From assembly GCA_001004105.1 (NCBI GenBank), contig LCQK01000002.1:75419-139418 (forward strand): a stretch of 64,000 nt of DNA, read 5' to 3'. Position 1 is the stretch's first letter. Each line of letters opens with the position of its first letter. This DNA is from Candidatus Jorgensenbacteria bacterium GW2011_GWB1_50_10. Its GTDB lineage: Bacteria; Patescibacteriota; Minisyncoccia; UBA6257; GWB1-50-10. Positions 8,563-63,737 of this stretch are shown one piece after another. The notes beneath the pieces are model-generated. The model saw nothing but the letters and a program-made list of their open reading frames with translations. It made no database searches and had not been told where the DNA came from. The translations under genes were made by a program, and so were the position numbers.

Positions 8563-8582
8563 AATTTTAAACAAAAAAACAT

Positions 8583-9008: not shown

Positions 9009-9044
9009 CCCGCCCGTCCAATGGACAGGCGGGATTAGTTTTTA
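9008..9044 (+). terminator. Rho-independent terminator of rnpB
   Basis: CCCGCCCGTCC-aatg-GACAGGCGGG then ATTAGTTTTT. A near-identical terminator module recurs at 9719-9754. Confidence 0.7.
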
Positions 9045-9699: not shown

Positions 9700-9718
9700 G
9701 TTTTGATGAGATTCACTA

Positions 9719-9754
9719 TCACGCCTGTCCATTAGACAGGCGTGATTAGTTTTT
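9719..9754 (+). terminator. Rho-independent terminator (twin of the rnpB terminator)
   Basis: TCACGCCTGTCC-atta-GACAGGCGTGA then TTAGTTTTT. Confidence 0.7.
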
Positions 9755-17790: not shown

Positions 17791-19133
17791 TGGACAGTTC
17801 GGCTTACGGCGCCGGCTGGAATATTCGGCAAATAATCCCGCGGATTAATTGTAACACCAACCGGCACCAAACCGGCTGCCGGCGCGATGGATTTCAAACT
17901 CACGCTCGGCGTCCAGTAAAGCGTAAGGTGCAGGTGAGCGCCGTAGGAGTAGCCAGTGTCGCCGGAGTAGCCGATTGTGTCGCCTTTCATAATCCGCTCG
18001 CCTTTCTGGACGATTTGACGCGAGAGATGGGCGTAGATGCTCGTTAAACCGTTGTCGTGTTGAATCAAAACGTATTTGCCGTATTGGTATTTCAACCAAC
18101 GCGAGGTGCCACGGTCGTTGTTATCCACGGCGATGACTGTGCCGGTTTCAACCGCCATAATTGGTGTGCCGATCGGCGCCCGGAAATCAACGCCGTTGTG
18201 TGTCTTACTCCGGTATGCGCGCTGAGCGAAGGCCGTAGGGCCGAAGTCCTGCGTAAGATAGGGATTCTCCACCGGAAAACCGATAACGCCGGGACGTTTT
18301 ATCGGCAGCAAACTCGGGTCGAAAGATTTGCGGAGTTGGTCTTCATATTCGTCCATAATCTTGCTGATTTTCTCCTGCTGTTTGTCCAGTTCCGCGATTT
18401 GGGCTTGGTAGATTTTTTCCTGGTTTTTGGTTTGAGTGAGAACCGTGTTTTTGACGGTTTTCTGGGCCTGGACTATCTGCTGGCGATTCGTTAGATTGAC
18501 TCGTTCTCTTTCTTTCTGCGCCTGTTTTATCTGTTCCTCGCTTAATTTTTCCACCAAGTCCCCCTGATATTTACGGAGTTCTTCAGCGCTCGCGTTTAAA
18601 TCACTATTCAAGGTGGCGATAGATTGGGCTTCCGAGACGCTCTCGGCCAAACTCTGGTTTCGCAGGAAGATTATCAGGAAATTTTCCCGATCTTTTTGCT
18701 GGAGTTCCACCATAAGCCGCCCGATAGTCGCTTTTTTGTTGTCTATACTTTCCTCAATGCCTTTGATGTCGCCGCTTAGCGATTCTATTTCCAGCGCGAG
18801 TTTATCGAGCGTCACCTGATTCGCTTTGATGGAGAGATTAAGTTGACTGATGTTGTAGTCAATGGTTTTTAATTCCTTTTGGAGGGAACTTTTAAGAGAG
18901 CCGGTTTGTTCCAATTGTTCTTCAATCTTGGCGCGTTCCTCCATTAATTGCTGAAGCTCGGCGTTTTTGGCGTCAATCTGCGACCGTAAACTATCAGCCG
19001 TGGCGGCATTGCCGTTCCCACTCCCCTCCTCCGCGGTTTGCGAGAAGATCGGCGACGTTGAAATTAACCCGATTAATAGAATTATGAATAATGAATAACG
19101 AATTAATTTCATACCATCTCTTGAAGATAACAT
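17787..19133 (-). CDS. M23-family metallopeptidase with N-terminal coiled coil (EnvC-like)
   Basis: Long Q/E/K-rich coiled coil followed by LytM motifs: HNGVDF, TSIYAHLS, GAHLHLTL. Confidence 0.8.
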   Translation of the reverse strand: MLSSRDGMKLIRYSLFIILLIGLISTSPIFSQTAEEGSGNGNAATADSLRSQIDAKNAELQQLMEERAKIEEQLEQTGSLKSSLQKELKTIDYNISQLNLSIKANQVTLDKLALEIESLSGDIKGIEESIDNKKATIGRLMVELQQKDRENFLIIFLRNQSLAESVSEAQSIATLNSDLNASAEELRKYQGDLVEKLSEEQIKQAQKERERVNLTNRQQIVQAQKTVKNTVLTQTKNQEKIYQAQIAELDKQQEKISKIMDEYEDQLRKSFDPSLLPIKRPGVIGFPVENPYLTQDFGPTAFAQRAYRSKTHNGVDFRAPIGTPIMAVETGTVIAVDNNDRGTSRWLKYQYGKYVLIQHDNGLTSIYAHLSRQIVQKGERIMKGDTIGYSGDTGYSYGAHLHLTLYWTPSVSLKSIAPAAGLVPVGVTINPRDYLPNIPAGAVSRTVQ

Positions 19134-20794
19134 TTTTCACAGTAAACCGTTGGGAATTCCGATTCGGTATGGACGCTGTCAATTTCGGCGCCGCATTTGC
19201 CGCAGGTCCTCTTATGTAAAACGAGATGGTTGGCGATAAATTTCAGGCGTAAATGGTGCCTTTCAAATGGTGCCTCGCGCGGTATAGGCAGGTCAAACCT
19301 TCTGTAGAAAGCGAGTTCCATTGGTATAATCCGGTACGCCTTATCCGACGTTTCGCCCTTCAGCACCTTTTCAAAAATATCGTTTTTCACGTCGCGGATG
19401 TCATCTGGAATAACGTAATCCGAAAAATCGTATTTTTTGTCCGCTTCATAATCGTTCCAGTTAAATCCCCTCTTTATCGCTTCTTCTTTTGTGAGCGGAA
19501 AGTATTCGCAAGCCACCGTTTCGTTGTAGCCGTAAGGGGAAAGCTCATAAGGGAAAAACTCGCCATATTTGTAAATCCTCTCTCTTCTATCCGTATACGG
19601 TTTTTCGTTCATGTGCGCTATTATTTTCTCCCTTAATTTTTCATATTCTTCTTTGGGATATTGCTTGTTTAGGATGCAGAAGTTTTTGTTTCTCGCATTG
19701 ATGCAGCCAAAACAATCGTTGCAGTTGATGAGTAAGTGGGAATATTCAACGTTCGTTGATTCGCGGATAATGCTCGTTGAAAACTTCATATTGAAGAGTT
19801 TTTCCGAACCGGCCAAGAATTCATAGGCGAGTTCGCACCACCAAACCGAGGTGACGTCCATTGAATCTTTCACTTCCAGAGTAAAGAACATGTATTTTGA
19901 GTCCTCAGTTTTTTCCACGTTCCAGCACTCCTTGCAGTTTTTCGATTCTTTGATTTGGGTGCCGGTTACGTTTACCGATTTTTCGATGAAAGTCGCACGC
20001 TGGGGCTGGGTTTTCCAGAAAGACTCCGTCTGATCTTTGAGTTTTTTGAAATTTTTGTAGGAGCCCAGGCGATTTTCGCTCATGAATTTTTCAAATTCCT
20101 CTTTTGGAACCGGTTTGTTGAATACGTGATATTGTTTGTGCCGCAAGCCGGAGCAGCCGAAAATATTGCTGCAATTTCGGCAGTCAAAGGAAAAATAAGC
20201 GTCGCGGCAGTCGTAACAGAAAATGGAGTTAAAAACCTTGTATCCCCTCTCACTTAGAATTGTTCCGTAAGCGAACTGGCCGTTCATGTGCCAGAAATTG
20301 TCAAAGCAGTCCTTGCATTTCAGGACGTACTGATTGTAAGCGCAATCTTCGTTCAAGTGACCGCCGAAGTTAAGGTAGCAATTTTTATCGTCAAGTTCGT
20401 AATTAATCCAGGGGCTGTTGATTGAATTTTGCTGGAGGAGCGACAAGTGCGGGACGTCTTTTTGAAGTTCTTTCCATTGTTCAAAAAAAGTTTTTGAAAA
20501 ATTATATTCACGTCCATATTTCAAAGGATCCCACCCGTCCGAATAGAAGCAATCCGGGCAGTAGGTTTTGAAAGGCTTATCGGGCGAATACATGGCGATG
20601 ATTTCTTTTTTGCAAAGGTCGCAGGGGCGTTTGTAAAGACTGCGCTCGTTTCTTTGAGTAAATCTTCTCTGAAGCCGGCACTTTGGGCACCAAGTGGGTG
20701 CTGGAACATTGATTTTTTTGTAAAAATCAAAATCTTCCGCTTCTATCGTGAATTGTTGTTTGCAATTCTGACAGGTTTTGGTTTCGGCGTTCAT
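19109..20794 (-). CDS. Cys-rich protein, paralog A of an uncharacterised family (561 aa)
   Basis: N-terminus ETKTCQNCKQQF-IE-EDFDFYKKINVP-PTWCPKCRLQRR is shared with 23917..25677 and 25705..27459. Internal duplicated module C-DC...C-NCFGC-GLR-K-Y...NK-Y-KEEYEK. About 40 Cys. Confidence 0.6.
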   Translation of the reverse strand: MNAETKTCQNCKQQFTIEAEDFDFYKKINVPAPTWCPKCRLQRRFTQRNERSLYKRPCDLCKKEIIAMYSPDKPFKTYCPDCFYSDGWDPLKYGREYNFSKTFFEQWKELQKDVPHLSLLQQNSINSPWINYELDDKNCYLNFGGHLNEDCAYNQYVLKCKDCFDNFWHMNGQFAYGTILSERGYKVFNSIFCYDCRDAYFSFDCRNCSNIFGCSGLRHKQYHVFNKPVPKEEFEKFMSENRLGSYKNFKKLKDQTESFWKTQPQRATFIEKSVNVTGTQIKESKNCKECWNVEKTEDSKYMFFTLEVKDSMDVTSVWWCELAYEFLAGSEKLFNMKFSTSIIRESTNVEYSHLLINCNDCFGCINARNKNFCILNKQYPKEEYEKLREKIIAHMNEKPYTDRRERIYKYGEFFPYELSPYGYNETVACEYFPLTKEEAIKRGFNWNDYEADKKYDFSDYVIPDDIRDVKNDIFEKVLKGETSDKAYRIIPMELAFYRRFDLPIPREAPFERHHLRLKFIANHLVLHKRTCGKCGAEIDSVHTESEFPTVYCEKCYLQEMV

Positions 20795-21366
20795 ATTTTG
20801 TCAATTCTTTCGCCGCGGCCGAGGAGAAGCGCCGGATAGCCGGCATGATTTACCTCCAATGTTCCGCAGCCCAGATTTTTGAGAAAAGCTATCATCTCGT
20901 TCATTATTTCTTTATGGTCGGCGTGGTGCCTATCGCCGTAATATTCAATTTCAACGAAATCACCGAGATTTTTCACCGAATCCATTGCTATCTCGTAGTC
21001 CCTGTATCTCCAAATTTTCCGTTTTTTATCAACAACCGTCACCGGTTTGAAATTGAGATTTTCCAAAATCTTTCGCATTGTATCGATGCTCTCAATTTTC
21101 GTTTCAAATTCATCGGCGTAGAGCCCTCTCCCCTCTTTATCAAAATGCCACCGCTTGTAATTGACCGAATATTTGCCGTTGGAATCGCGGAGACGGAACC
21201 ATTCTTCAATTGGGCGCGGCGAAAGAAAATTGCGGTGAGCGGGCGTGAAATACTCGTCTACTTGATGGTTTTCCGACTCAAATTGCGCCTCTCTTTCCAA
21301 AAAATCCAAAAGCGGCTTGCTGTGCTTAAGTTTCGCCTGCAATTCAATTTCGGTTTCTTTATTCAT
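20791..21366 (-). CDS. CYTH-domain protein (class IV adenylate cyclase CyaB / triphosphatase family)
   Basis: EIE...K, WHFDKEG, YADEFETKI, VVDKKRKIWRY, DFVEIEY. Start assigned to the ATG (MNKETEIE). Confidence 0.55.
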   Translation of the reverse strand: MNKETEIELQAKLKHSKPLLDFLEREAQFESENHQVDEYFTPAHRNFLSPRPIEEWFRLRDSNGKYSVNYKRWHFDKEGRGLYADEFETKIESIDTMRKILENLNFKPVTVVDKKRKIWRYRDYEIAMDSVKNLGDFVEIEYYGDRHHADHKEIMNEMIAFLKNLGCGTLEVNHAGYPALLLGRGERIDKI

Positions 21367-21375
21367 ATCTCTACC

Positions 21376-21403
21376 ACTGAACAATTCGCGCGAATTGTTC
21401 AGT
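21376..21403. repeat. Perfect 28-nt palindrome ACTGAACAATTCGCGCGAATTGTTCAGT
   Basis: Read directly. Lies between the gltX stop and the CYTH gene start. Confidence 0.7.
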
Positions 21404-21407
21404 CATA

Positions 21408-22817
21408 TTAACCCAACTTTTTAATTGCCTTACCTATCCTCTTTAACGATTCTGTCTTGCCGAGGACTTTTAGGATTTCAATCGGTCCTGGTGAGGCGTC
21501 TTGGCCGGAGAGAGCCGCGCGAAGGGGCCATAAAACCTCGCCTCTCCCCTCTTTTTCGGCCAAGGCCAGAATTTCCGGCTCTGGCGAGGCGGAATTTTTG
21601 GTGATGTCGTGGACGGATTTTAAATTAGCCAAAATTCTTTCTTTAGGGGTCTCTTTCCAGATTAAAAGTTTGGCGTCATAGTCGGGCAAGCCAAAAAAGA
21701 AAGCCGCCATATCCTTGAAGCCTTTCAGATTTTTAATCCTTTCTTTTTCGGTTTCTATGATGTTTTGGAGCACTTTCTTTTTTGCGAGCCACGTCTTCGG
21801 CACGAAAGGTTTCAACTTTTCCATAAGTTCTTCAGTTTTCGCGGTTTTGATGTAGTGGGCATTCAGCCAGTTGAGTTTTTCTTCGTTGAAAACCGCGCCG
21901 CCTTTTTGGACGCGTTCCAGCGTAAATTCTTTTACCAAATCTTGCCGATTTATCACTTCCCTGTCCTCTCTGGGGTGCCAGCCGAGGAGGGCCAGGAAAT
22001 TGAGCATCGCCTCCGCCAAGTACCCTTCTTTTTTATAATCGTTCAGGGACGTTTCCAGGCGCCGCTTGGAAAGTTTCTGACGGCCGGTGCCCAAAATTAG
22101 CGGCAGATGGGCGAATTGCGGTCCCTCAAGTCCAAGCGCTTCCTGAATCACAATCTGTTTCGGCGTGTTGGAGATGTGGTCCTCGCCCCTTATTACGTGG
22201 CTAATGTTGGTCAAGACGTCGTCCACCGAGGCGGCGAAATTATAGAGCGGCTCGCGGAGACTCTTGGCGATAATCACGTCGCCCACGAGCGCCATATCAA
22301 ACTCAATTTTGCCTTTCACAAGGTCGTTGAACGACACTTTTTTCTCGGGCATCCGGATGCGAATCACGGCTTTCCCGCTTTTTTTGATTCTCGCATCCGC
22401 CTCGTCCGGCGGAAGATGGCGGCAGCGGCCGCCGTATTTGGGCGCAAATCCTTGGGAGAGCTGGTTTTGTCTTTCTGCTTCCAACTCTTCCGGCGTGCAG
22501 AAACACCAGTAGGCCTTTTTTTCGTTAAGAAGTTTCTGTAAGCTCTCGGCGTAAATTTCCAGGCGTTCGCTCTGCCTTATCGGTTCTTCGTCGGGTTCAA
22601 GCCCGAGCCAAACAAGGCCTTCCAAAATGTCTTTTTCAAATTCTTTTTTGGAGCGTTCTTTGTCGGTATCCTCGATTCTCACGAGGAATTTCCCGCCCTC
22701 GTGTCTGGCGAAAAGCCAGTTGAAAAGCGCCGCCCGGGCGTTCCCCAAGTGGAGCGGGCCGGTCGGTGACGGCGCAAAACGCACCCTAATCTCTCTTTTT
22801 GGACCGGGGTTCATCAC
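21408..22817 (-). CDS. gltX: Glutamate--tRNA ligase
   Basis: VRFAPSPTGPLHLGNARAALFNW (HIGH region). KLSKR (KMSKS). 469 aa. Confidence 0.9.
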   Translation of the reverse strand: MMNPGPKREIRVRFAPSPTGPLHLGNARAALFNWLFARHEGGKFLVRIEDTDKERSKKEFEKDILEGLVWLGLEPDEEPIRQSERLEIYAESLQKLLNEKKAYWCFCTPEELEAERQNQLSQGFAPKYGGRCRHLPPDEADARIKKSGKAVIRIRMPEKKVSFNDLVKGKIEFDMALVGDVIIAKSLREPLYNFAASVDDVLTNISHVIRGEDHISNTPKQIVIQEALGLEGPQFAHLPLILGTGRQKLSKRRLETSLNDYKKEGYLAEAMLNFLALLGWHPREDREVINRQDLVKEFTLERVQKGGAVFNEEKLNWLNAHYIKTAKTEELMEKLKPFVPKTWLAKKKVLQNIIETEKERIKNLKGFKDMAAFFFGLPDYDAKLLIWKETPKERILANLKSVHDITKNSASPEPEILALAEKEGRGEVLWPLRAALSGQDASPGPIEILKVLGKTESLKRIGKAIKKLG

Positions 22818-22837
22818 CCCTAATTATGCAATAAATT

Positions 22838-23920
22838 CTACTCTTTTTGAAGTATTTGGAGCAGTTTTTCGGCGATTGTGGAGGCGGCATCGGGCTTGGC
22901 GAAATTTTTAGCAGCCACACACATTGTTCTGGCGCGTTTTTTGTCCTTCATAATTTTTTCAATTTCGGTTTTCATGGTCGGCCAGTTTAAATTGTTTTCT
23001 TCCACAACGATTGCCGCGCCGGTTGCGGCATATTCGTAGGCATTCGCTTTTTGATGATTACTTGCCGATTCTTCTATCGGAATGAGGATAGAGGGTTTGC
23101 CGAAGGCGGCGATTTCAAAAATAGCGGCGGCCCCAGAGCGAGAAATTACCAAAGCGGTTTCCGAAAGTGCCTGCCCCAATTCCGCCGCGTTCAAAAAAGC
23201 CACCGGCCGGTAGTTTTTGGTGGCGCTATAATTAATTATAGCGCCTGAATTATTCTCTCCGGTTTGATGGATGACTTTACCGAATTTCAACAACTCTTTG
23301 AGGTTCGTGGAAATAAATGAATTGATGCGGGTTGCGCCCTGTGAACCGCCAAGGATAAGAATAGACATTCCAACATTCTTAAGAATGTTGGAATGTTGTG
23401 GGTTTGTTGCTTTCTCTACGAGTTCGGAACGGATGGGGTTGCCGACCACCTCGGTTTTGTTTTTCGGGAAATATTTAGCGGCAGCCGCAAAGGCGAGAAA
23501 TATTTTTTCGGCAAAGACGGCGGAGATGCGGTTGGTAAACCCCGGCACGGCGTCGGAGTCGTGAATCACGACCGGTATGAAAAAGCATTTGGCAGCAAGA
23601 ACGACCGGCAAGGCGCCGGGACCGCCCTTGGAAAAAACCAAACTAGGCTGCAAATAGAAAATATGGGCGATGGACTGCAAAATACTCCAGAAAAATTTGA
23701 AAATATCCGTGAAATTCTCCCAATCAAAATAGCGCCGAAACTTGCTTGAAGCAATCGGGAGAATTTTAATGCCTCTTTTTGCAAATTCGGCGTTCAAAGG
23801 GTGATTCGGACCGATGTAGAATAATTCCACCCCCCCGTTCTTTTGCAGTTCCTCCGCGACCGCAAGGAGCGGAAAAATGTGCCCTCCCGTCCCGCCCCCT
23901 GTTAATACGATTTTTTTCAT
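22838..23920 (-). CDS. murG: UDP-N-acetylglucosamine--N-acetylmuramyl-(pentapeptide) pyrophosphoryl-undecaprenol N-acetylglucosamine transferase
   Basis: N-terminal LTGGGTGGHIFPLLAVAEEL. C-terminal GASELAA-like region. 360 aa. Contains the 24-nt palindrome at 23222-23245. Confidence 0.85.
   Translation of the reverse strand: MKKIVLTGGGTGGHIFPLLAVAEELQKNGGVELFYIGPNHPLNAEFAKRGIKILPIASSKFRRYFDWENFTDIFKFFWSILQSIAHIFYLQPSLVFSKGGPGALPVVLAAKCFFIPVVIHDSDAVPGFTNRISAVFAEKIFLAFAAAAKYFPKNKTEVVGNPIRSELVEKATNPQHSNILKNVGMSILILGGSQGATRINSFISTNLKELLKFGKVIHQTGENNSGAIINYSATKNYRPVAFLNAAELGQALSETALVISRSGAAAIFEIAAFGKPSILIPIEESASNHQKANAYEYAATGAAIVVEENNLNWPTMKTEIEKIMKDKKRARTMCVAAKNFAKPDAASTIAEKLLQILQKE
23222..23245. 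repeat. Perfect 24-nt palindrome GGCGCTATAATTAATTATAGCGCC inside murG (encodes GAIINYSA)
   Basis: Identical to 16613-16636. Confidence 0.85.
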
Positions 23921-25677
23921 ACTACTTCTGCGTTATAACACTGCTCGCAGTAAATGATATCCGGCCGCTCTGGAGCATAGGAGGTTTCAAATTTATTGGG
24001 ACAATAACCCTCTTCATGAGAGTGTTTTACGGTGTTCTTGTATATGCCGTTTTCCGAGGTATCTCCTGCACATTGGCACACTCGTGCATACAACTTCGCC
24101 CGGTTTCTTTGACTGATGCGGCTCCAGTGGCGACAGTCAACGCACGTTCGAGGCGCAGGAACGCTATTTTGTTTTAAGAATTGGATCTCCTGAGGAATGA
24201 TTCGGTATGCACGGCCGCACTCCGCGCATTTTATGACTTCCTTGCTGATTTCATCAGAGATATCGGCTATGGCATCAGGTAGATCAGTTGCATTCATCGT
24301 GGTTTGGTACTCGGTGGGGCTGGGATTACTCCATCTGAAACCTTGGGCCGCCGCTTCTTCTTTTGTAAGTGGGAAATGTTCCGGCGTAATTGTTTGATCG
24401 TAGGCAAATGGAGAGAATTCCGGCGGGAAGAATTCTCCGTAGCGATATTCCCTGCCCATAGCATCTTTGTATGGCATCACATTCATATGGGCGATAATTT
24501 TTTCCCGTAAGACGAAATAATCTTCTCTCGAATATTGTTTGTTTAAAATGCAATATTTTTTATTTCGCATACCGGCGCAGCCGAAAAGATTTGAGGACGA
24601 CTTGCAAAACATGCAATATTCAAGATCGTAAGCGTTTGACCAGCATTCGAAACAAAACTTTAAACGACCTCCCTGCCAGCCGCACACAGAGCCTTCGTAA
24701 ATAAGGTCCATGCCCCAGCCAGCGATGCTTGCATCGTACGAATCTTTTCCCGGAGGCACCTGAATATATTGGCAATATTTCAAATCTTCGCCCTCGCGCA
24801 CAAGATAGCTGTTCTTCGTATTTTTTGAGTGGGTGATAAATTCACCGCTCACATTCGTGTTTTGAATGCCTTGCAAGAATTTATTCGGAAATTGAATCCA
24901 AAAACTCCGCGCTTCAAGAGAGACCCTTGAGAAACCGCTCCACGTACTAAGATTCATCGCTTTGAGTTTCGTTTCGTACTCTTCCTTCGAATACTGCACA
25001 TTGAAGATGCGGTATTTTTGCATTCTAAGATTCACGCACCCGAAGCAATCACTGCATCCCCGGCAATCTCTGGAGAACCAGACATCATTACAATCCTCGC
25101 AGCGAGACGAGAAATGGGTTTCGTAGCACTTCGTAAGCCAAAACGAACCATAACACCGTTCGCATTTCTGGAGGTGCGAGTTGTCCACGCAACTTTTACA
25201 GCTGTCTATTGCGTTCCCATAGGCGCTGTCTTCGGTGTGATTGGAATTAAACAGAAGATAACAATTTTTGAGTTCAGCCGCATTCGCTGAATATTCGCTG
25301 TTCACCATATTCAGCACGCTTGCATGTGCCTTCGGAACTTTCTTATTTAGTTCATGGAGCTGGGCCAAGAACGGACGCGAGAAATCGACTTCCTGACCGT
25401 ATTTCGCCGGATCCCAAACGTCAGTATTCCATTCCTCGTCTTTATACAGAGTATAGCCGGCTTCAGGAGGATACAAGGTCAGGATATTTTCCTGAGATAA
25501 CGCGCTTTTTCCCCGAAAGAGCTTTCTTTCGTTTCTAAATATCGCGCGCCGTTGGAACCTGCACTCCGGGCACCATGTCGGTGGAGGGACATTGATTTTT
25601 TTATAAAAATTAAAATCCTCCGGCTCTATTATGAATTGATTCTTGCAGTTCTGACAGGTTTTAGTCTCGGTATTCAT
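23917..25677 (-). CDS. Cys-rich protein, paralog B (586 aa)
   Basis: Shares the N-terminal ETKTCQNCK...CPECRFQRR and C-terminal ...YCEQCYNAEVV with paralog C. Confidence 0.6.
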   Translation of the reverse strand: MNTETKTCQNCKNQFIIEPEDFNFYKKINVPPPTWCPECRFQRRAIFRNERKLFRGKSALSQENILTLYPPEAGYTLYKDEEWNTDVWDPAKYGQEVDFSRPFLAQLHELNKKVPKAHASVLNMVNSEYSANAAELKNCYLLFNSNHTEDSAYGNAIDSCKSCVDNSHLQKCERCYGSFWLTKCYETHFSSRCEDCNDVWFSRDCRGCSDCFGCVNLRMQKYRIFNVQYSKEEYETKLKAMNLSTWSGFSRVSLEARSFWIQFPNKFLQGIQNTNVSGEFITHSKNTKNSYLVREGEDLKYCQYIQVPPGKDSYDASIAGWGMDLIYEGSVCGWQGGRLKFCFECWSNAYDLEYCMFCKSSSNLFGCAGMRNKKYCILNKQYSREDYFVLREKIIAHMNVMPYKDAMGREYRYGEFFPPEFSPFAYDQTITPEHFPLTKEEAAAQGFRWSNPSPTEYQTTMNATDLPDAIADISDEISKEVIKCAECGRAYRIIPQEIQFLKQNSVPAPRTCVDCRHWSRISQRNRAKLYARVCQCAGDTSENGIYKNTVKHSHEEGYCPNKFETSYAPERPDIIYCEQCYNAEVV

Positions 25678-25689
25678 CGTCTCAATTTT

Positions 25690-25713
25690 GGGTGGTATGA
25701 CATGTCATACCAC
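25690..25713. repeat. Perfect 24-nt palindrome GGTGGTATGACATGTCATACCACC between Cys-rich paralogs C and B
   Basis: Read directly. Hybrid of the GGTGGTAT...ATACCACC arms and the TATGACATGTCATA core. Confidence 0.8.
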
Positions 25714-27459
25714 CTCGGCATTGTAACATTGTTCACAGTACACAATTTCCGGCCTTTCGGGAGAGTAGCTTGTTTCGAATTCGTTAGGACACGCCTCCGT
25801 TCCGTGAAAATGAAAAGCGGTGTTTTGGTAAACTCCTTTTCCCGATTTTTCTCCGGCACAGGTGCATTTGCGGTGCCAGAGTTTTCTGGGATTGCGCATT
25901 GAAAAACGGTCGGTCCGACGGCACGGAAAACACTTTGCCGGTACCGGGACGCGGAGCTTTCGATATAGATCGAGTTCCAGAGGAATAAGCTTAAAAGCCG
26001 TCGCACACAACGGGTGGGTCTTCTTTTCTCCTTCGGAGTCCTGCGTTGCGCATTTGATGACTTGATTCAATATAGAGTCATCGGTTTCAGAAATTTTTTG
26101 CGGCACTTCAGAGGCACGCATTGTGGATTGGTATTCTCTCTCAGTGCGGTCATGCCAGGGTAATCCTTGTTTTTTAGCTTCGTCACGCATCAATGGGAAA
26201 AAATCTTGGGTTACCGATTCATTGTAGGCAAACGGAGATGTATTGGCTGGAAAATATTCACCCCATTCCCCCGTTTTCTTCATATGCTCAATGATTTTAT
26301 CTTTGAGTTTGAAATACTCATCTTTTGTATATTGTTTATTCAAAATACAAAATCCTTTTTGCCTTACGCCAAAACAACCGAAACAATCACTGCTTGAAAA
26401 GCACATATCGCAATAATAGCTGTCGGTCATTGTCCAGGAGCTGCGAATTGCCATGCAATTTCGCAAATAGGCGCACCCTTGAAGCTCATGGCAACGCTCA
26501 GCTTCCAATATTTCAGTTGAATCAAAACAATCCGTCATTTTCCAGGCGTCTTGGAGATAAGCGGTTTCTTTATTCTCGCGACAGTTGAAATCAAAACGGG
26601 CGCGCTCAGTGTTTTCCAGATAATCGCCAGTGGAATTATAAGATTTTGCGCCGTGATAGAATTTGCGCGGCATTGTAAGAGCAAATTTAGCCGTCTCCTG
26701 ACGAGCAGTGATTATAGCGTTACGGCTCCAATCGAATTCCCTCAAACGTTTTTCGTACTCTTCTTTTGAGAGCTGCTTGTTCAGCCAAAAATATTGTTTG
26801 TTGCGAAGACCAACGCAACCGAAACAATTGTTGCAACCGCGAAGGTCGATGCAGAACGACAATTCCACTGAATCAAAACAGTCCTGACACCACACGCATC
26901 GGGAGCAACGGCCGCAGTTAATGCACTCGTAGCATAATTCGCTTTTTTCGATCATGTAGCAATCAGCCGAGAAGTAGCTGCCCGGCTGAAACCAATTGCC
27001 GTACATGCATTTCTCGCTGCCGCCCGTAGCCGAGCACATATAACAATCCTTGTTGTCCTGCGATTGATTTGTGTACTCGCTATTGACGCTGTTGGAATTC
27101 ACTAAAGCAAGGTGAGGCACTACGCGGCGGAGATTCTCGTATTGTTCAAAAAATGGCCGGTTGAAATCAAAATCCCGGCTGTAAGACAAGGGATCCCACG
27201 CGTCCGATTTCCATACCTCCTGTTTATATACCGGGAATGGCGCGTCCGGACGATAAATAGAGACAATGGTTTCACCGGTAAAATTACATTTCCTCTGGTA
27301 TAAACTCCACTCATTCCTATCTAATAATCTCCTTCGATAGCGGCAATCCGGACAGAATGTCGGCGGCGGGACGTTGATTTTCTTGTAAAAATCGAAATCT
27401 TCCGGTTCGATTACAAAGTTTTGTTTGCAGTTTTGGCAGGTTTTGGTTTCTGAACTCAT
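25705..27459 (-). CDS. Cys-rich protein, paralog C (about 584 aa from MSSETKTC)
   Basis: Start moved to the Met homologous to paralogs A/B (MSSETKTCQNCKQNF). The track ORF extends to 27486. Confidence 0.6.
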   Translation of the reverse strand: MSSETKTCQNCKQNFVIEPEDFDFYKKINVPPPTFCPDCRYRRRLLDRNEWSLYQRKCNFTGETIVSIYRPDAPFPVYKQEVWKSDAWDPLSYSRDFDFNRPFFEQYENLRRVVPHLALVNSNSVNSEYTNQSQDNKDCYMCSATGGSEKCMYGNWFQPGSYFSADCYMIEKSELCYECINCGRCSRCVWCQDCFDSVELSFCIDLRGCNNCFGCVGLRNKQYFWLNKQLSKEEYEKRLREFDWSRNAIITARQETAKFALTMPRKFYHGAKSYNSTGDYLENTERARFDFNCRENKETAYLQDAWKMTDCFDSTEILEAERCHELQGCAYLRNCMAIRSSWTMTDSYYCDMCFSSSDCFGCFGVRQKGFCILNKQYTKDEYFKLKDKIIEHMKKTGEWGEYFPANTSPFAYNESVTQDFFPLMRDEAKKQGLPWHDRTEREYQSTMRASEVPQKISETDDSILNQVIKCATQDSEGEKKTHPLCATAFKLIPLELDLYRKLRVPVPAKCFPCRRTDRFSMRNPRKLWHRKCTCAGEKSGKGVYQNTAFHFHGTEACPNEFETSYSPERPEIVYCEQCYNAEVV

Positions 27460-27500
27460 TTTATTTATTGAAATTATACCACCCAATGTTAATAACCGAT

Positions 27501-34479: not shown

Positions 34480-34511
34480 CTTCAATTTATCCCATATGGG
34501 ACAAATTGAAG
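34480..34511. repeat. Near-perfect palindrome CTTCAATTTATCCCATATGGGACAAATTGAAG between convergent genes
   Basis: Same family as 8583-8614 and 7725-7754. Confidence 0.75.
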
Positions 34512-34526
34512 ATATTTGAATTTACC

Positions 34527-37018: not shown

Positions 37019-37042
37019 GGTGGTATACTTAAGTATACCACC
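37019..37042. repeat. Perfect 24-nt palindrome GGTGGTATACTTAAGTATACCACC (intergenic copy)
   Basis: Identical to 4955-4978 (inside pgk) and 63714-63737. Confidence 0.85.
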
Positions 37043-40906: not shown

Positions 40907-41341
40907 TTAAAAATCGGCGACCTCTTCCAAAGAAACGGTGTTAAGTGATGAGTCAATAGTGAGGCGCAAATTGGTTGTTTTATTATCAACCGTCGCTTTA
41001 GATTTGATGATTTTATTGCTGCCGCTTGTTTCAATAGGCAGAACGGTGCAAGTATAGGTTCCAATACTTACGTCTTCATTGCCGCTGTAGGAACCGAGTT
41101 TCATTTTCAATTTGGCGTGTTCTAAGCAACCTTGAGCAACCTTTTTTGAGACAACCTTCATTTCCAGGGCGCTTGTATCAAACCGCCCCAAATAATTGCT
41201 GCTCGAGAAGACCAAAGCGATTACAATGACGATAGCGGTCGTAATTACCGCCGAGATGATGGCGATGTAACCCTGCCTGCCGCCTGCTTGCCCGTGCCTA
41301 CCGGCAGGCAGGCCTCTTTCTTTTTTAACGGGGTAAGACAT
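40907..41341 (-). CDS. Hypothetical pilus-cluster membrane protein with N-terminal RHGQAG motif
   Basis: N-terminus ...LPAGRHGQAGGRQG followed by a TM helix. The motif is encoded by the hairpin element at 41282-41313. Confidence 0.4.
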   Translation of the reverse strand: MSYPVKKERGLPAGRHGQAGGRQGYIAIISAVITTAIVIVIALVFSSSNYLGRFDTSALEMKVVSKKVAQGCLEHAKLKMKLGSYSGNEDVSIGTYTCTVLPIETSGSNKIIKSKATVDNKTTNLRLTIDSSLNTVSLEEVADF

Positions 41342-41831
41342 AAAACAAGGTAGTAGTTGCGACGATGTTCGGGTAGATATTGCTCTCTAACGAAAGATAA
41401 ATCCTCAATTGGGGCGGCGAGCTGGAAGCGGAGATGTGTTGAACATTGAAGCCCGTGACTTTTATCCTCTCGCTTGTAATGGGAACGGAGGATGCGTTCG
41501 CGAGCGATAAATTTACCGCGGGGCCGTTTAGAAAAAAAACGGCTGGGCTTGAGCTCGCATCACTCAAGTTCATTTTGAGCTCCGTGGAAGTGGCGTCGGC
41601 GGCGGGGATGACGACGTCGGTGGCGATACCGGTTAGCCAGTTGAGTTTGCCTCCCACGAATTCTGCATTAGCCAGAAGTTCGTTTCTTTCCAGAAGATTG
41701 TCGGTGGTGCCCAAAATGCTTGCAATGAAAGCGAAGGCCGCGCCTAAAAAAATGGCCAGTATCACTGAATAAATTAAAACCTCAAGCAGAGTAAAACCAG
41801 CCCGAGCTTTTAGTTTGCTTGTTAAACGCAT
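41325..41831 (-). CDS. Prepilin-type N-terminal cleavage/methylation domain protein (minor pilin)
   Basis: AGFTLLEVLIYSVILAIF. Confidence 0.65.
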   Translation of the reverse strand: MRLTSKLKARAGFTLLEVLIYSVILAIFLGAAFAFIASILGTTDNLLERNELLANAEFVGGKLNWLTGIATDVVIPAADATSTELKMNLSDASSSPAVFFLNGPAVNLSLANASSVPITSERIKVTGFNVQHISASSSPPQLRIYLSLESNIYPNIVATTTLFYVLPR

Positions 41832-53381: not shown

Positions 53382-53405
53382 GGTGGTATACATATGTATA
53401 CCACC
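53382..53405. repeat. Perfect 24-nt palindrome GGTGGTATACATATGTATACCACC (variant with CATATG centre)
   Basis: Differs from the 4955/37019/63714 copies only in the central 4 nt. Confidence 0.8.
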
Positions 53406-57704: not shown

Positions 57705-59552
57705 CTACTTTTTCAAGAGCTCGCGGAAGACCTCGGGCGAAACCCGTACTTCGGCTCTCTGCTTCAGGAGTTTTTTGCCCCGCTTCTGCTTCTGCCAAAG
57801 TTTCATTTTTCTCGTCCGGTCGCCGCCATATAAATAGCCCGTCACGTCTTTTTTCAAGGCCGGGATGTCCTCGCGGGCAATGATTCTTCCCAGGGCGCTC
57901 GCCTGGATGCTTTGGGCGAATTGTTTCCGCGGCAGGAGTTTTTTCAGCCGCTCGGTCATAAGCCGTGCCTCCCTTTCGTAAGTGCCCCTCGGGTAAAAGC
58001 GAGAGAGGCCCGGCACCGGCTCGCCCGCAAGGAGAATTTCAACCCGTACTATATCGGCCCTGACGTATTCGGCCGGTTCGTAGCTGAAAGAAGCGTAGCC
58101 CTCGGTGAGTGATTTCAATTTGTCGTCAAAATCGCTTACCAAGTCAAAAAGCGGCATTTTGGCGGTAATTTCCATTTTGTCCTGAATTAATTCAGTTTTC
58201 ACGCCGCTCATCCGAAAAATCTGCTGCAGCGGGTAAAAATCTTTTAGGAACCGCGGCGGCATTATTATTTCAACACTCACCGTCGGCTCCCAAATCTCCT
58301 CAAACTCGGCGGGTAAATCTTCCGGCTTTATTATTTCTTCAAAACCTTTCTTGGTCTTGACCCGGTACAAAACCGAAGGGAAAGTGTTCGTCGTTAAAAC
58401 ATTGAATTCCCGCTTTAATCTTTCAGCTGTAATCTCGAAATGAAGCCGACCGAGAAATCCGACTTTGAAGCCACGGCCCAAGACCGCGTTTTGGTCCGGC
58501 CCGATGGCGAGCGCCGAATCGTTGAGCTTCAGTTTTTCCAAGCTTTTGCCCAGGAGTTCGTGATCGTCGGCGTCTTCCGGGTAAAACGAAACGAAAACCA
58601 CCGGCTTCGGCTCTTTATAGCCCACAAGGGCTAAATCACTAATGCTCACTAATTTCCCACTAATCTCACTAATGCTTCCATTTGTAATATTCGTGTTCAA
58701 AAATTTGTGCTTATTAGTGATTAAGGTGTCGCCGATTTTGATTTTGTTCGGGTCCTTGATGCCAGTCGCAATGTAACCGATTTCCCCGGCGCGCAAAACT
58801 CCGCTTGGCTTGAATTGAGGCATAAAAAATCCCAGTTCTTTCATTTTCGATTCAGTCTCGGTCGCGATAAGGTGAATGGTGTCTTCTCTTTTGATTTCAC
58901 CATCAAAAACCCGAAGAGACGCCACTACGCCCTTGTGGTCGTCGTAAAAAGAATCAAAGATGAGGGCCCGGCTGACTTCGGCTGTCGGGTCGCCCAAGGG
59001 TCGCGGCACTCTTTCTATCACGGCCGCCAAAAGCTCCTCCGCGCCTTGCCCTGTTTTCCCGGAAACATAATAAATCTCTTCAAGCGGCGCCCCAACGAGC
59101 GCTGCCACGTTCTTCCTCAAATTTTCCAGTTCGCCCATCCGATTTTGAAAAATATCGATTTTGTTCACGGCACCGATGATTTTAAGGCCCGCGTTTTTCG
59201 CCGCCCGTAAATTCGCGAGTGTCTGGGCTTGTATCCCTTGGGTTGCGTCAACGAGAAGTATCGCCCCCTCCACTGCCGCGAGTGCCCGCGAAACTTCGTA
59301 GGAAAAATCGCTGTGGCCGGGAGTGTCAATCAGATTTAGGGTATAGGTTTTAGGTGATAGGTTATAGGACATGCGGACGGGGGCCATTTTAATGGTGATT
59401 CCCCGCTCCCGTTCCAGTTCCAATTGGTCCAGATACTGGGCTTTCATTTGGCGCTTCGGCACCGTCCCGGTAATTTCAAGAAACCGGTCGGCAAGCGTTG
59501 ACTTGCCGTGGTCAATGTGGGCAATAATGCAAAAATTCCGGATATCCTGCAT
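57705..59552 (-). CDS. lepA: Elongation factor 4 (LepA)
   Basis: NFCIIAHIDHGKSTLADR, LIDTPGHSDF, NKID, LepA-specific C-terminal domain. Contains a 10-bp tandem repeat insertion at 58636-58676 and heptad repeats at 59333-59368. Confidence 0.9.
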   Translation of the reverse strand: MQDIRNFCIIAHIDHGKSTLADRFLEITGTVPKRQMKAQYLDQLELERERGITIKMAPVRMSYNLSPKTYTLNLIDTPGHSDFSYEVSRALAAVEGAILLVDATQGIQAQTLANLRAAKNAGLKIIGAVNKIDIFQNRMGELENLRKNVAALVGAPLEEIYYVSGKTGQGAEELLAAVIERVPRPLGDPTAEVSRALIFDSFYDDHKGVVASLRVFDGEIKREDTIHLIATETESKMKELGFFMPQFKPSGVLRAGEIGYIATGIKDPNKIKIGDTLITNKHKFLNTNITNGSISEISGKLVSISDLALVGYKEPKPVVFVSFYPEDADDHELLGKSLEKLKLNDSALAIGPDQNAVLGRGFKVGFLGRLHFEITAERLKREFNVLTTNTFPSVLYRVKTKKGFEEIIKPEDLPAEFEEIWEPTVSVEIIMPPRFLKDFYPLQQIFRMSGVKTELIQDKMEITAKMPLFDLVSDFDDKLKSLTEGYASFSYEPAEYVRADIVRVEILLAGEPVPGLSRFYPRGTYEREARLMTERLKKLLPRKQFAQSIQASALGRIIAREDIPALKKDVTGYLYGGDRTRKMKLWQKQKRGKKLLKQRAEVRVSPEVFRELLKK

Positions 59553-59553: not shown

Positions 59554-61701
59554 TTAATCGTTCTTTGCGAGCGTCAAATCAACGATTGTTCTTGCGTCAG
59601 GATCATTATCCTCGTAAACGAAGGCCGGTGAACCCGACTCAACCCAGTGGTAACCGATAGGCGCGCTGACCGTCACACGCAAATCATTTTGGACTCCGGA
59701 TTGGCGCTCGAATATGAACCGGAATTGACTCCCTTCGCCAAGAACGAAATTCCCCGGGCGAGGCGTCTGATAGCTCAAAGACAGAGTGCGGCTCTTGCCG
59801 GAGGGCACGTTAAACCAGGTCGCAAAAACGTTCTTGCCGAACGCTTCCATGCTCCAGGCATCATAGCCCGAGAGCGTTACCTTGGTGCTTTCAATTTTCT
59901 CCAAATCAGCATTCGTTTCGTAAGTTTTGTCATAAACCGGCTTTCCAAATTTCTTTACGTCATTGCCCTTCAATGAAACGAGCGTGGAGCCGGGATTGGC
60001 GAAAACCTGCAGATAATTCTGATTGGTCGCTCTCCACCAAGGGTCCTTTTGGGTATTGCCTTCGTGCTTCCTGGTCAATTCTAAATCGGTAAAAACGCCG
60101 CCGTCAATATCAATGTCAATTCTCACTTCAGCCGTTTCTTTAATGAAGGCGTCGCTCTTGCCGCCGGCAATGTTCGAGTTTACAACCGCGAGATAAGTTC
60201 CCCAGAAATTATTGGGCAATTCGAAAACGGAGCCGTCCAAACCGATGGATTTGAAAAACGAGGCAAGATTCGCCTCTTTCGCGTAAATCATGATGTCTTT
60301 CTTCTCAAAATGGGCTTTAACGGCATCGGCGAGCGCCACCCTTTCCGTCTCGCTGATACTTCCCAATTTTTCCAAAATAATCGGCGTAATAACGCTCAAA
60401 ATTTTCTTGGGATTCTCACCCGGCTTTTTGTCCCGGCCGATCTCCACTTCTCGCTGGATTTCCATAAGGAAATTATCGGCGCTGATTTTCAAATTATAAT
60501 CGGGAATGTCAATCGGTCCGAGAACCCGGAGGAGCGTTTCCATGACCCGAATATTCAAGGCAAAGACGGCGTCAAAAATCACGTTTTGGTCCTTATATAT
60601 TTTGGAGCTCTCAAGTATCGAAGCGACGGTGCGGGCCGAAGTTGGAAAATCGAAAAACCAATTTCCGTCCCGCGCTCCCCAATCCTTGGTCACGGCCTGG
60701 AGCGGCTCCGGCGGAATGAGTTTCAAATTAAAATTCATCGGGTGGTCAGGCCAGTAAATGTCCTGCACCTGTAAATTAACCATCTGTCCTTCTTTCACGG
60801 TTAAATCGCCGTAGCTGCCCAAGAAACCGCCGGCCGGCCGGATTTCGGCCGGGTTCTGGAAAAGCAGGAGGATGTGCTTTTCTTCCGGCGCACCGAAAAG
60901 GACGGTGAGTCCCTCCATGAATCGCTCCAAATTTCGGAGGTCAGCGCTGTATTTCAAGTATTCGCCGCCAATCATTGCTTCGGCATCAGCAAAGAAAGGC
61001 GAAACCGATTTAAGTGAGGAAGCGGAATTGCGGGCCGATTCAATCTCATGGGAGGTGTTACTCACGATGTTTTTCACTTCCACGAATTTTTGAAGGAGTT
61101 TCCTGCCGTCATTTTGGAAATAATGGAAACCGTAGAGTTCCAAATCGTAAAGTGCCTCGGAAAGCTCCAAGAAATTCAAATTCAAGGCGGTGACGTTGTT
61201 CAGGAAACCGCCGGCGTTCTTTAACGCCGGCACCACGCCGCCCAAAACGGCGAGAACCGTCTTCGTGCCCGGTTTTCCAATCAAAGCGTTCAAACCGGAA
61301 AGCTCTCTGGAGTTTTCCGCAAGCGCCGAACTCGCTTCCCCTGGCTTCAGGTCCTTCAAAAAATTCAAAGACGATACGAAATTGCTTATCACCAAACCGC
61401 TTTTTTGGAGCACCACCGTTTTAACTTCCTTTAAATTAAAGAGCGCAAGGACGGAGATGACGCCGAAAACCAAAACCAAAGAAATCAAAGACCAGCCGAT
61501 GAGTTTAATGTAAACCGGCTTTTTCAAAGGAATCCGGCGGGGCACGCGCCCTGCCTGCCCGTGCCTATTGGCAGGCAGGCGATAGGCATGGCTCAAATTC
61601 AGCTTAGGTTGTTTAACAAGAATCGCTTTGTAGTTAAAACCCGGTTTCCGGACGTCCACCAAGACCGGGTCTATATTCTTGATTGGTACTTTTTTCCTCA
61701 T
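59554..61701 (-). CDS. Large membrane-anchored protein, DUF4012-like, with N-terminal RHGQAG motif
   Basis: N-terminal cytoplasmic segment ...LPANRHGQAGR..., single TM, about 600-aa extracytoplasmic domain. Adjacent to glycosyltransferase/sugar-transferase genes. Confidence 0.45.
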   Translation of the reverse strand: MRKKVPIKNIDPVLVDVRKPGFNYKAILVKQPKLNLSHAYRLPANRHGQAGRVPRRIPLKKPVYIKLIGWSLISLVLVFGVISVLALFNLKEVKTVVLQKSGLVISNFVSSLNFLKDLKPGEASSALAENSRELSGLNALIGKPGTKTVLAVLGGVVPALKNAGGFLNNVTALNLNFLELSEALYDLELYGFHYFQNDGRKLLQKFVEVKNIVSNTSHEIESARNSASSLKSVSPFFADAEAMIGGEYLKYSADLRNLERFMEGLTVLFGAPEEKHILLLFQNPAEIRPAGGFLGSYGDLTVKEGQMVNLQVQDIYWPDHPMNFNLKLIPPEPLQAVTKDWGARDGNWFFDFPTSARTVASILESSKIYKDQNVIFDAVFALNIRVMETLLRVLGPIDIPDYNLKISADNFLMEIQREVEIGRDKKPGENPKKILSVITPIILEKLGSISETERVALADAVKAHFEKKDIMIYAKEANLASFFKSIGLDGSVFELPNNFWGTYLAVVNSNIAGGKSDAFIKETAEVRIDIDIDGGVFTDLELTRKHEGNTQKDPWWRATNQNYLQVFANPGSTLVSLKGNDVKKFGKPVYDKTYETNADLEKIESTKVTLSGYDAWSMEAFGKNVFATWFNVPSGKSRTLSLSYQTPRPGNFVLGEGSQFRFIFERQSGVQNDLRVTVSAPIGYHWVESGSPAFVYEDNDPDARTIVDLTLAKND

Positions 61702-63713: not shown

Positions 63714-63737
63714 GGTGGTATACTTAAGTATACCACC
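63714..63737. repeat. Perfect 24-nt palindrome GGTGGTATACTTAAGTATACCACC (intergenic copy)
   Basis: Identical to 4955-4978 and 37019-37042. Confidence 0.85.

What the first reader, a model, noticed from the sequence alone, without database searches (positions are those of the whole stretch)
41282..41313. Hairpin-forming ~30-nt element encoding an N-terminal 'LPAxRHGQAG' motif, duplicated in two unrelated membrane proteins (second copy 61550-61579)
GCCTGCTTGCCCGTGCCTACCGGCAGGCAGGC (41282-41313) and CCTGCCTGCCCGTGCCTATTGGCAGGCAGG (61550-61579) are about 90% identical imperfect palindromes. Both lie within the first ~20-45 codons of minus-strand genes: the pilus-cluster protein 40907-41341 and the DUF4012-like protein 59554-61701. 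Both are translated as ...LPAGRHGQAGGR... and ...LPANRHGQAGR... just before a TM helix. This could be either an mRNA 5' hairpin (translational control) or a conserved cytoplasmic sorting/processing tag. The shared DNA palindrome suggests a mobile mini-element origin.
Basis: seen in the sequence. Interest (0 to 1): 0.5.

Follow-up and report, generated by a model that had tools for sequence, protein, structure and literature searches.

The report
Small palindromic repeat inserted inside two genes
Two copies of a 30-base GC-rich hairpin-forming repeat have landed in frame in the dispensable N-terminal tails of two unrelated membrane proteins of a Jorgensenbacteria (CPR) genome; it looks like selfish repeat DNA of the kind called REP, not a conserved protein signal.

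Summary
Two 30-nt imperfect palindromes (41283-41312 and 61550-61579) are 27/30 identical, lie on the coding strand in the same frame, and no such match is expected by chance.

The peptide is not a conserved tag. None of the 120 listed DUF4012 orthologues shows the motif or the extra residues. The closest full-length one (73% identity) lacks exactly 14 codons (42 nt) at that point. Most orthologues of the pilin-like protein have a 7-10 residue leader without it.

The element is 67-76% G+C in genes of 42-49% G+C. A third, intergenic copy (CCTGCCTGCCGGCAGGCAGG) lies 8.7 kb beyond the window end in the same genome. A related Hainich groundwater population carries its own variant twice, once at the same pilin-leader site and once intergenic.

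A metagenome scan found 54 distinct sites with the same architecture (CCTGCCTGCC...AGGCACGG...GCAGGCAGG). The named hosts are Kaiserbacteria, Lewinella, Mucilaginibacter and Desulfobacterota. About half of the sites classified are intergenic, often just after stop codons. The rest lie in frame in unrelated genes (GatA, HsdR, PglZ and others).

Best reading: a REP-like dispersed palindromic mini-element, tolerated in N-terminal tails. How it is mobilised is unknown. The idea of a regulatory mRNA hairpin is not excluded, but the evidence does not support it.

The parts
41272..41313 (-). Copy 1 (W1) of the palindromic element. On the coding strand: 5' arm CCTGCCTGCC (41312-41303), loop GGTAGGCACG (41302-41293), imperfect 3' arm GGCAAGCAGG (41292-41283), C, then a second, perfect 3' arm GGCAGGCAGG (41281-41272). 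Translated as (G)LPAGRHGQAGGRQ in the leader of the pilin-like protein.
61549..61590 (-). Copy 2 (W2): a 42-nt in-frame insertion CATGCCTATCG-CCTGCCTGCC-AATAGGCACG-GGCAGGCAGG-G (core 61550-61579). Translated as HAYRLPANRHGQAG between the conserved ..NLS and RVPRR.. of the DUF4012 protein.
40907..41341 (-). Host gene 1: a 144-aa pilus-cluster protein with a short N-terminal leader, invariant G24-Y25 and then a hydrophobic helix. It has no Pfam hit. The start ATG overlaps the upstream pilin gene by 17 nt.
41325..41831 (-). Upstream N_methyl pilin gene. Its stop codon (41327-41325) lies 12 nt upstream of copy 1, so copy 1 sits just 3' of a gene end, as many intergenic family members do.
59554..61701 (-). 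Host gene 2: a 715-aa DUF4012 membrane protein. The N-terminal 60 residues (MxKKVPxKNIDPVLVDVxKPG..NL) are conserved in orthologues, so the ATG at 61701 is the real start and copy 2 is translated.

Best explanation
The two sequences are copies of a genome-specific variant of a short (20-45 nt), GC-rich, hairpin-forming dispersed repeat. It resembles REP elements (repetitive extragenic palindromes). It is built from the units CCTGCCTGCC, (N)AGGCACGG and GCAGGCAGG. Copies are templated from one another and settle at gene boundaries. In this compact genome adjacent genes overlap, so the 3' flank of one gene is the 5' coding region of the next. Only insertions that keep the frame, avoid the one stop-containing frame and fall in a tolerant segment survive. 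The two tolerant segments here are the leader of a pilin-like protein and the cytoplasmic tail before the TM helix of the DUF4012 protein. The encoded 14-16 Gly/Arg/Pro/Ala/His residues are a passive by-product, not a signal. Shown: the insertions, the empty sites, the additional intergenic copies, the genome-specific variants and the wider family. Inferred: selective neutrality, the preference for gene boundaries, and the copying mechanism. By analogy with REP/RAYT the mechanism could be a hairpin-recognising single-strand (HUH-type) transposase; copying by gene conversion is also possible.
For: (1) Empty sites. A syntenic relative (L008/L010) lacks both insertions, while the flanking DNA and protein align. 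None of the 120 listed DUF4012 orthologues has the 14 residues.
(2) Composition. The element is 67-76% GC against 42-49% for the host genes.
(3) Third copy in the same genome. It is intergenic (dnaJ-rplJ), a perfect 20-nt palindrome, at L079:1013-1032.
(4) Genome-specific variants. W1 and W2 are 27/30 identical. The Hainich copies L009 (pilin-leader site) and L074 (intergenic, upstream of a small membrane-protein gene) differ from each other by 2 nt but differ from W1/W2 in the centre.
(5) Recurrent hits at the same site. P0122 (filled) is sister to P0123 (empty). P0133 has a minimal GCCTGCCCTTGGGCAGGC hairpin at the same codon. P0136 and P0137 carry an unrelated 70-nt palindrome in the same leader.
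(6) Wider family. There are 54 distinct metagenome sites, with several copies per contig. About half of the 35 sites classified are intergenic, some 8-9 nt after stop codons; the rest are in frame in unrelated Pfam-confirmed genes and in different frames. Named hosts span CPR, Bacteroidota and Desulfobacterota.
(7) The element is reproduced identically in independent assemblies from two sequencing runs.
Against: Only three copies were seen in the ~74 kb of this genome that could be read, so high copy number is unproven. No transposase or RAYT gene is annotated in the parts of that stretch for which Pfam annotation was retrieved. There are no clear target-site duplications. The REP tags GTAG/CGTC are not consistently present. 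The metagenome family was retrieved with a pattern that fixes the arms and the AGGCACGG core, so its homogeneity is partly by construction, and a few high-GC hits (for example L021) are chance matches. Similarity across phyla could be convergence of simple (CTGC)n/(GCAG)n hairpins rather than common descent.
Confidence: 0.72

Rival explanations
1. The hairpin is a selected mRNA element at cistron junctions. After processing it would protect the upstream mRNA from 3' exonucleases, or it would damp translation of the downstream gene and so set the stoichiometry within the pilus and envelope operons. The repeat would then be co-opted rather than neutral.
For: Copy 1 lies 12 nt after the stop of the upstream pilin gene and 30 nt after its own start codon. 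It is a stable hairpin (-29 kcal/mol, z=-4.65). 5 of 19 orthologues carry some hairpin-forming insertion in the same leader, from at least two unrelated sequence families. Many intergenic family members sit a few nucleotides after stop codons, as classical REPs do (PMC3733652).
Against: Copy 2 is 120 nt from the cistron junction, is unique among 120 orthologues, and on the mRNA strand is not more stable than shuffles (z=-1.52). 14 of 19 pilin-like orthologues have no hairpin. There is no Rfam match. The terminator scan places no terminator-like site at either copy. Tolerance of the leader to insertions explains the hot spot equally well.
Confidence: 0.12
2. The sequences arose independently at each site by replication slippage or template switching of a (CTGC)n/(GCAG)n tract, without any copying between loci.
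For: The arms are tetranucleotide-like repeats. Copy 1 has a tandemly duplicated 3' arm. Variants with extra arm units occur in metagenomes.
Against: The asymmetric loop NNTAGGCACG is shared by W1 and W2, and the 37-nt L009/L074 pair differs by only 2 nt. Independent slippage would not reproduce these. The empty sites contain no (CTGC)n seed.
Confidence: 0.08
3. LPAxRHGQAG is a conserved cytoplasmic sorting or processing tag recognised by a protease or targeting factor.
For: Both copies use the same frame and lie before a TM helix.
Against: The motif is absent from the orthologues of both proteins. Family members are translated in other frames or are intergenic. Using the same frame twice is expected by chance about 1 time in 5, because 5 of the 6 frames are open.
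Confidence: 0.02
4. It is an assembly or sequencing artefact.
For: One NCBI contig (P0001) breaks exactly at copy 2.
Against: Copy 2 is identical in the window, in an ENA assembly of SRR1658343 and in a Logan assembly of SRR1658462. Copy 1 is identical in the window and in that ENA assembly. The reading frames are preserved.
Confidence: 0.01

Closest known systems
REP / BIME / REPIN elements (repetitive extragenic palindromes of Proteobacteria and others), including the intragenic REPs described by Di Nocera et al. 2013 (PMC3733652)
   Same: They are 20-40 nt GC-rich imperfect palindromes, dispersed, predominantly just downstream of coding regions, with lineage-specific variants. Occasional copies lie entirely inside ORFs of unrelated proteins. 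Different REPs can hit the same site of the same gene in related species.
   Different: There is no consistent GTAG or CGTC tag at one end. No RAYT was seen. Copy number here looks low. The units are interleaved (A-B-A'-B') rather than forming a single stem-loop. The host is a CPR bacterium, for which the literature search found no paper mentioning REP or RAYT.
Rickettsia palindromic elements (RPE)
   Same: Palindromic repeats inserted in frame into functional protein-coding genes, adding a peptide segment without destroying the protein (as summarised in PMC3733652).
   Different: As I recall, RPEs are about 100-150 bp; they carry a CGTC tag (PMC3733652) and are known from Rickettsia. The element here is 20-45 nt and unrelated in sequence.
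MITEs (for example the Correia and ERIC elements; reviewed in PMC2229807 and PMC10969869)
   Same: [quoted passage not shown]
   Different: MITEs are 70-300 bp with terminal inverted repeats and target-site duplications. Neither feature is seen here.
GC clusters of yeast mitochondrial DNA (from my own knowledge, not checked here)
   Same: Short GC-rich palindromic mobile clusters in an AT-richer genome, sometimes in frame within genes (var1).
   Different: They are organellar, unrelated in sequence, and the host genome is far more AT-rich.

Membership tests
REP (repetitive extragenic palindrome) | Short (20-40 nt) imperfect GC-rich palindrome able to form a stem-loop | tested here: met
REP (repetitive extragenic palindrome) | Many dispersed copies per genome (usually more than 100) | tested here: inconclusive
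   There are 3 copies in the ~74 kb of this genome that could be read.
REP (repetitive extragenic palindrome) | Mostly extragenic, just downstream of coding regions | tested here: inconclusive
   In this genome 2 of 3 copies are intragenic, but copy 1 lies 12 nt after the upstream stop codon. In the wider family about half of the 35 classified sites are intergenic, several within 1-21 nt of a stop.
REP (repetitive extragenic palindrome) | Conserved GTAG or CGTC tetranucleotide at one end (PMC3733652) | tested here: not met
   W1 has GTAG, but inside the loop. W2 has ATAG, and most family members have GCAG there. No terminal tag is visible in the flanks.
REP (repetitive extragenic palindrome) | Associated RAYT (IS200/IS605-type tyrosine transposase) in the genome | not testable with these tools
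   No such gene is annotated in the annotated parts of the window and its 10-kb extension. The whole genome is not available.
RPE (Rickettsia palindromic elements) | In-frame insertion in otherwise conserved ORFs | tested here: met
   A 42-nt insertion and a net 48-nt longer leader, with the frames preserved.
RPE (Rickettsia palindromic elements) | About 100-150 bp elements with a CGTC tag, homologous to the RPE families | tested here: not met
   The length is 20-45 nt and there is no CGTC tag.
MITE | 70-300 bp with terminal inverted repeats and target-site duplication | tested here: not met
   The element is too short, and no duplication is visible at filled versus empty sites.
Protein sorting or processing signal | Motif conserved in orthologues and position-specific | tested here: not met
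Intrinsic terminator or known cis-regulatory RNA | Stem-loop followed by a U tract, or a match to an Rfam family | tested here: not met
   The plus-strand T run after copy 1 is the complement of the Lys/Glu/Arg codons AAAAAAGAAAGA.

The most novel reading that the evidence does not exclude
The CCTGCCTGCC / AGGCACGG / GCAGGCAGG elements form a previously undescribed, cross-phylum superfamily of REP-like repeats found in CPR, Bacteroidota and Desulfobacterota. It has an interleaved A-B-A'-B' architecture and lacks the GTAG/CGTC tags. In gene-dense CPR genomes these repeats colonise the 5' coding ends of genes, and some have been co-opted as hairpins at cistron junctions that tune operon expression (the recurrent hits in the pilin-leader site).
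Probability: 0.15. Interest if true: 0.6.

Novelty: new variant of a known kind. Interest (0 to 1): 0.35.

Why it matters
The finding shows that a shared 'motif' at the N-termini of two envelope proteins is selfish repeat DNA, not a signal. This prevents a false functional annotation. It also documents that streamlined CPR genomes, usually regarded as repeat-poor, carry REP-like palindromes. With almost no intergenic space, these survive as in-frame filler in tolerant protein tails. The same architecture in named Bacteroidota and Desulfobacterota hosts, often inside defence genes, points to either a broadly distributed mobilising activity or a strongly convergent hairpin. Either could be tested once complete genomes are scanned.

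Tried and rejected
- A genome-contig scan with the strict pattern GCCTGCCNNNAGGCACGGGCANGC gave only 7 scattered hits in unrelated taxa. I judged these likely to be chance, but did not check them. The window's genome is not in that collection.
- Viral contigs gave 0 hits. Plasmids gave only matches with E-values of 0.04-0.5.
- An exact-sequence search of the literature gave 0 papers.
- The last homologue search used a concatenate of the element-encoded peptides. It first failed on parameter limits and then returned nothing ('no candidate shares three 5-residue words'), so in-frame copies could not be enumerated at the protein level.
- Programmed -1 frameshifting was considered because AAAAAAG lies 8 nt upstream of hairpin 1, as in dnaX. 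By inspection, the A_AAA_AAG heptamer is in the one frame used by neither gene, so I rejected it.
- An antisense terminator was considered (a plus-strand hairpin followed by TCTTTCTTTTTT). The scan tool does not call it, and the T run is explained by Lys codons.
- An alternative start codon downstream of hairpin 2 (GTG/TTG at RVPRRIPLKK) is rejected because the upstream 37 residues are conserved in orthologues.
- The ~190-nt structured insertion around the third copy has no Rfam, tRNA or tmRNA match and no second copy in the held data.

Full report
OBSERVATION

On the coding (minus) strand they read CCTGCCTGCCGGTAGGCACGGGCAAGCAGG (W1, 41312-41283) and CCTGCCTGCCAATAGGCACGGGCAGGCAGG (W2, 61579-61550). 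They are 27/30 identical. No match at up to 3 mismatches appeared in 100 dinucleotide-preserving shuffles. The window holds no other copy at up to 10 mismatches or by a profile HMM of the family. CCTGCC..GGCAGG hairpins occur twice, against 0.07 expected.

Both copies lie in minus-strand genes and are read in the same frame, as LPAGRHGQAG and LPANRHGQAG. W1 has an additional perfect 3' arm (41281-41272), so RNAfold pairs the outer arms (-29 kcal/mol, z=-4.65). On the mRNA strand W2 is not more stable than shuffles (z=-1.52).

The element is 67-76% G+C. The host genes are 42% and 49% G+C without it.

CONTEXT

Names attached to identical proteins place the window in Candidatus Jorgensenbacteria, a CPR/Patescibacteria lineage from groundwater.

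- Gene 1 (40907-41341) is a 144-aa protein in a type IV pilus cluster: T2SSE, T2SSF, three N_methyl pilins and an LVIVD protein. Its start overlaps the upstream pilin gene. W1 begins 30 nt after the ATG and 12 nt after the upstream stop codon.
- Gene 2 (59554-61701) is a DUF4012 membrane protein that follows a GT4 glycosyltransferase.
- No transposase is annotated in the stretches of the window and its 10-kb extension for which Pfam annotation was retrieved.

THE PEPTIDE IS NOT CONSERVED; THE DNA IS AN INSERTION

Among the 120 listed DUF4012 orthologues, the N-terminus MxKKVPxKNIDPVLVDVxKPG...NLxRVPRR is conserved. This shows that the ATG at 61701 is the true start and that W2 is translated. 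Only the window protein has HAYRLPANRHGQAG between NLS and RVPRR.

The closest full-length relative (P0002, 73% identity) comes from a syntenic contig (L008). There the 42 nt are simply missing while the flanks align.

For the pilin-like protein, M1, G24 and Y25 are invariant. The leader is 7-10 residues in most of the 19 orthologues (MFYQNNQ|GY). The window has 23 residues. The syntenic relative L010 has the empty site ATGTTTTACCAAAATAACCAA|GGTTACATC.

These results refute a conserved sorting or processing tag.

FURTHER COPIES AND GENOME-SPECIFIC VARIANTS

Extending the contig 10 kb beyond the window end (L079) revealed a third copy in the same genome. It is the perfect 20-nt palindrome CCTGCCTGCCGGCAGGCAGG, in the dnaJ-rplJ intergenic region. 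It sits inside a ~190-235-nt segment that the relative lacks.

A Hainich groundwater orthologue (L009, P0122) carries GGCCTGCCTCCTGCGTGCGCAGGCACGGCGCAGGCA at exactly the same leader position. A second contig from the same sample (L074) has that variant, with 2 differences, in an intergenic region upstream of a small membrane-protein gene. I assume, but have not shown, that L009 and L074 come from the same organism.

Copies therefore resemble each other within a population more than between populations. This is the signature of copying between loci.

In a neighbour-joining tree P0122 (filled) is sister to P0123 (empty), and the window protein branches outside them. A more distant orthologue (P0133, L084) has a minimal GCCTGCCCTTGGGCAGGC hairpin at the same codon. 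P0136 and P0137 carry an unrelated ~70-nt palindrome in the same leader. The site has therefore been hit repeatedly, or emptied precisely. Either the element prefers this target, or the leader is the only tolerant part of the gene.

WIDER FAMILY

A metagenome scan for CCTGCCT-N3-16-AGGCACGG-N0-14-GCAGGCAG returned 68 loci, which reduce to 54 distinct sites.

- Positions left free in the pattern are also conserved. Several sub-families recur with identical sequence in different flanks.
- Some contigs hold two or three copies.
- A few high-GC hits are chance matches; L021, for example, is an ordinary conserved motif of a membrane protein.
- 35 sites could be classified on contigs of up to 56% G+C, where ORF calls are usable. 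About half are intergenic, several 1-21 nt from a stop codon.
- The rest lie inside ORFs, with a tendency toward the ends. Some of the apparent N-terminal cases may really be 5' UTRs, because start codons were not verified.
- Pfam confirms the reading frames of in-frame copies in GatA, a beta-lactamase-family protein, a PaaE-like reductase, HsdR (in the inter-domain linker), a helicase-NOV_C protein (domain stretch 75 aa for 63 profile positions), a PglZ protein and a DUF1156 methylase. Different frames of the element are used.
- Exact look-ups name the hosts: Candidatus Kaiserbacteria (the GatA with the insert is in NCBI), Lewinella, Mucilaginibacter and Desulfobacterota.
- Nothing was found in viral contigs, and nothing meaningful in plasmids.

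MECHANISM

Shown:

- The elements are insertions relative to relatives.
- Other copies of the family are intergenic.
- Variants are specific to a genome or population.
- Frames are preserved. Five of the six frames of the element are open, and the two insertions are 42 nt and a net 48 nt.

Inferred:

- The element propagates by copying between loci and tends to settle at gene boundaries, as REPs do (PMC3733652).
- In this gene-dense genome such boundaries are coding, so only in-frame copies in dispensable N-terminal segments persist.
- The Arg/His-rich peptide on the cytoplasmic side of a TM helix, or in a leader that may be removed if G|Y is a prepilin-type cleavage site, is expected to be harmless.
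- The enzyme is unknown. A hairpin-specific HUH transposase, as for REP/RAYT, is the natural candidate but was not found in the sequence available.

RIVALS

- A selected mRNA hairpin at the cistron junction remains possible for W1, given its position, its stability and the recurrent hairpins in this leader. W2 argues against it, as do the 14 of 19 orthologues without any hairpin, the absence of an Rfam match and the absence of a terminator-like site at either copy.
- Independent origin by slippage is contradicted by the shared asymmetric loops.
- An artefact is excluded by identical independent assemblies.
- Frameshifting at the AAAAAAG upstream of W1 was rejected because the heptamer is out of frame for both genes.

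COMPARISON WITH KNOWN ELEMENTS

The element works like a REP, and its intragenic copies behave like RPEs or the intragenic REPs of Di Nocera et al. (PMC3733652). It is not a demonstrable member of the GTAG/CGTC-tagged REP super-families: the tag test is not met and RAYT association could not be tested. It is too short for an RPE or a MITE. The literature search found no paper that mentions both REP/RAYT and Patescibacteria, and none containing the sequence.

VERDICT

This is a real feature with an ordinary mechanistic class: a REP-like selfish palindrome tolerated in frame. It is new for this lineage and has an unexpectedly wide family. Interest is moderate to low (0.35).

Noticed in passing
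window 4955-4978, 37019-37042, 63714-63737 (exact) and 53382-53405 (2 mismatches): A second palindromic repeat family, the 24-nt perfect palindrome GGTGGTATACTTAAGTATACCACC. Two copies lie 23-30 nt upstream of minus-strand gene starts and one lies between convergent genes. The copy at 4955 lies inside pgk (4478-5551), encoding GGILKYTT. Compared with the usual PGK sequence (recalled from memory) there appears to be no length change. It could be an operator site or a conversion tract.
   Followed up: partly
L079:876-1068 (same genome, about 8.7 kb beyond the window end; dnaJ-rplJ intergenic region): A ~190-nt lineage-specific insertion with 27-nt terminal inverted repeats (GAATAGCTTTTCT...GTCAGAC) and a very stable fold (-106 kcal/mol, z=-5.95). 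It has no Rfam, tRNA or tmRNA match and contains the third copy of the palindrome. It is MITE-like or an unknown structured RNA. An L10 leader follows at 1093-1194.
   Followed up: partly
L085:803-910 and L086:2001-2115 (orthologues P0137 and P0136 of the pilin-like gene): A different ~70-nt palindromic in-frame insertion (arms CCCGTTAGAAAT / ATTTCTAACGGG) in the same leader region. This makes the leader a hot spot for hairpin-forming insertions.
   Followed up: partly
L015/L028, L030, L036, L053, L043, L044/L063/L073 (metagenome loci): The sub-family CCTGCCTGCCGCGCAAGGCACGGCGCAGGCAGG is identical in contigs of 37-63% G+C. It sits in frame in defence-type genes: HsdR, a PglZ/BREX protein, a DUF1156 methylase and a helicase with a NOV_C/DUF3883 domain.
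   Followed up: partly
L017, L034, L042/L047, L054, L061, L013 (the three contigs that were looked up, L017, L034 and L054, are Lewinella-like): The sub-family CCTGCCTGCCCGTGAGGCACGGCCGAGCAGGCAGG is embedded in a longer repeat with shared flanks (..TTTTTAGTGGT / GTTGGAGCTTTAGTGGCTAT) in three of these loci. This suggests a larger composite element in Lewinella genomes.
   Followed up: no
window 16613-16636 and 23222-23245: Two identical copies of another 24-nt perfect palindrome, GGCGCTATAATTAATTATAGCGCC.
   Followed up: no
window 8995-9043 and 9706-9754: Two 82%-identical 49-nt segments: ATGA.. followed by a GC-rich hairpin (ATCCCGCCCGTCCAATGGACAGGCGGGAT) and TTTTT. They look like duplicated intrinsic terminators.
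   Followed up: no
window 8577-8614 and 34480-34517: A pair of 38-nt AT-rich palindromes (..CTTCAATTTCTCCCATATGGGAGAAATTGAAG..), 92% complementary to each other.
   Followed up: no
window 19109-27486: Three adjacent large genes without Pfam hits (561, 586 and 593 aa) share 70%-identical 165-nt and 55-nt segments (repeat families D1 and D2), so they appear to be tandem paralogues.
   Followed up: no
window 16051-16083, 16410-16456, 59337-59383: Short TAGGTGATAGGTT-type direct repeats at three places. The copy at 59337 is 91% identical to the one at 16051.
   Followed up: no
window 1-2529: The 23S rRNA ends at 1494 and the 5S rRNA starts at 2418. The ~920-nt gap contains a 157-aa ORF (1517-1990) that was not examined.
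   Followed up: no
P0001 (NCBI protein with locus tag UY32_C0008G0026): An independent assembly of the same DUF4012 gene is 'partial' and begins exactly at RVPRR. That contig therefore breaks at the palindrome, which suggests the repeat is an assembly obstacle.
   Followed up: no
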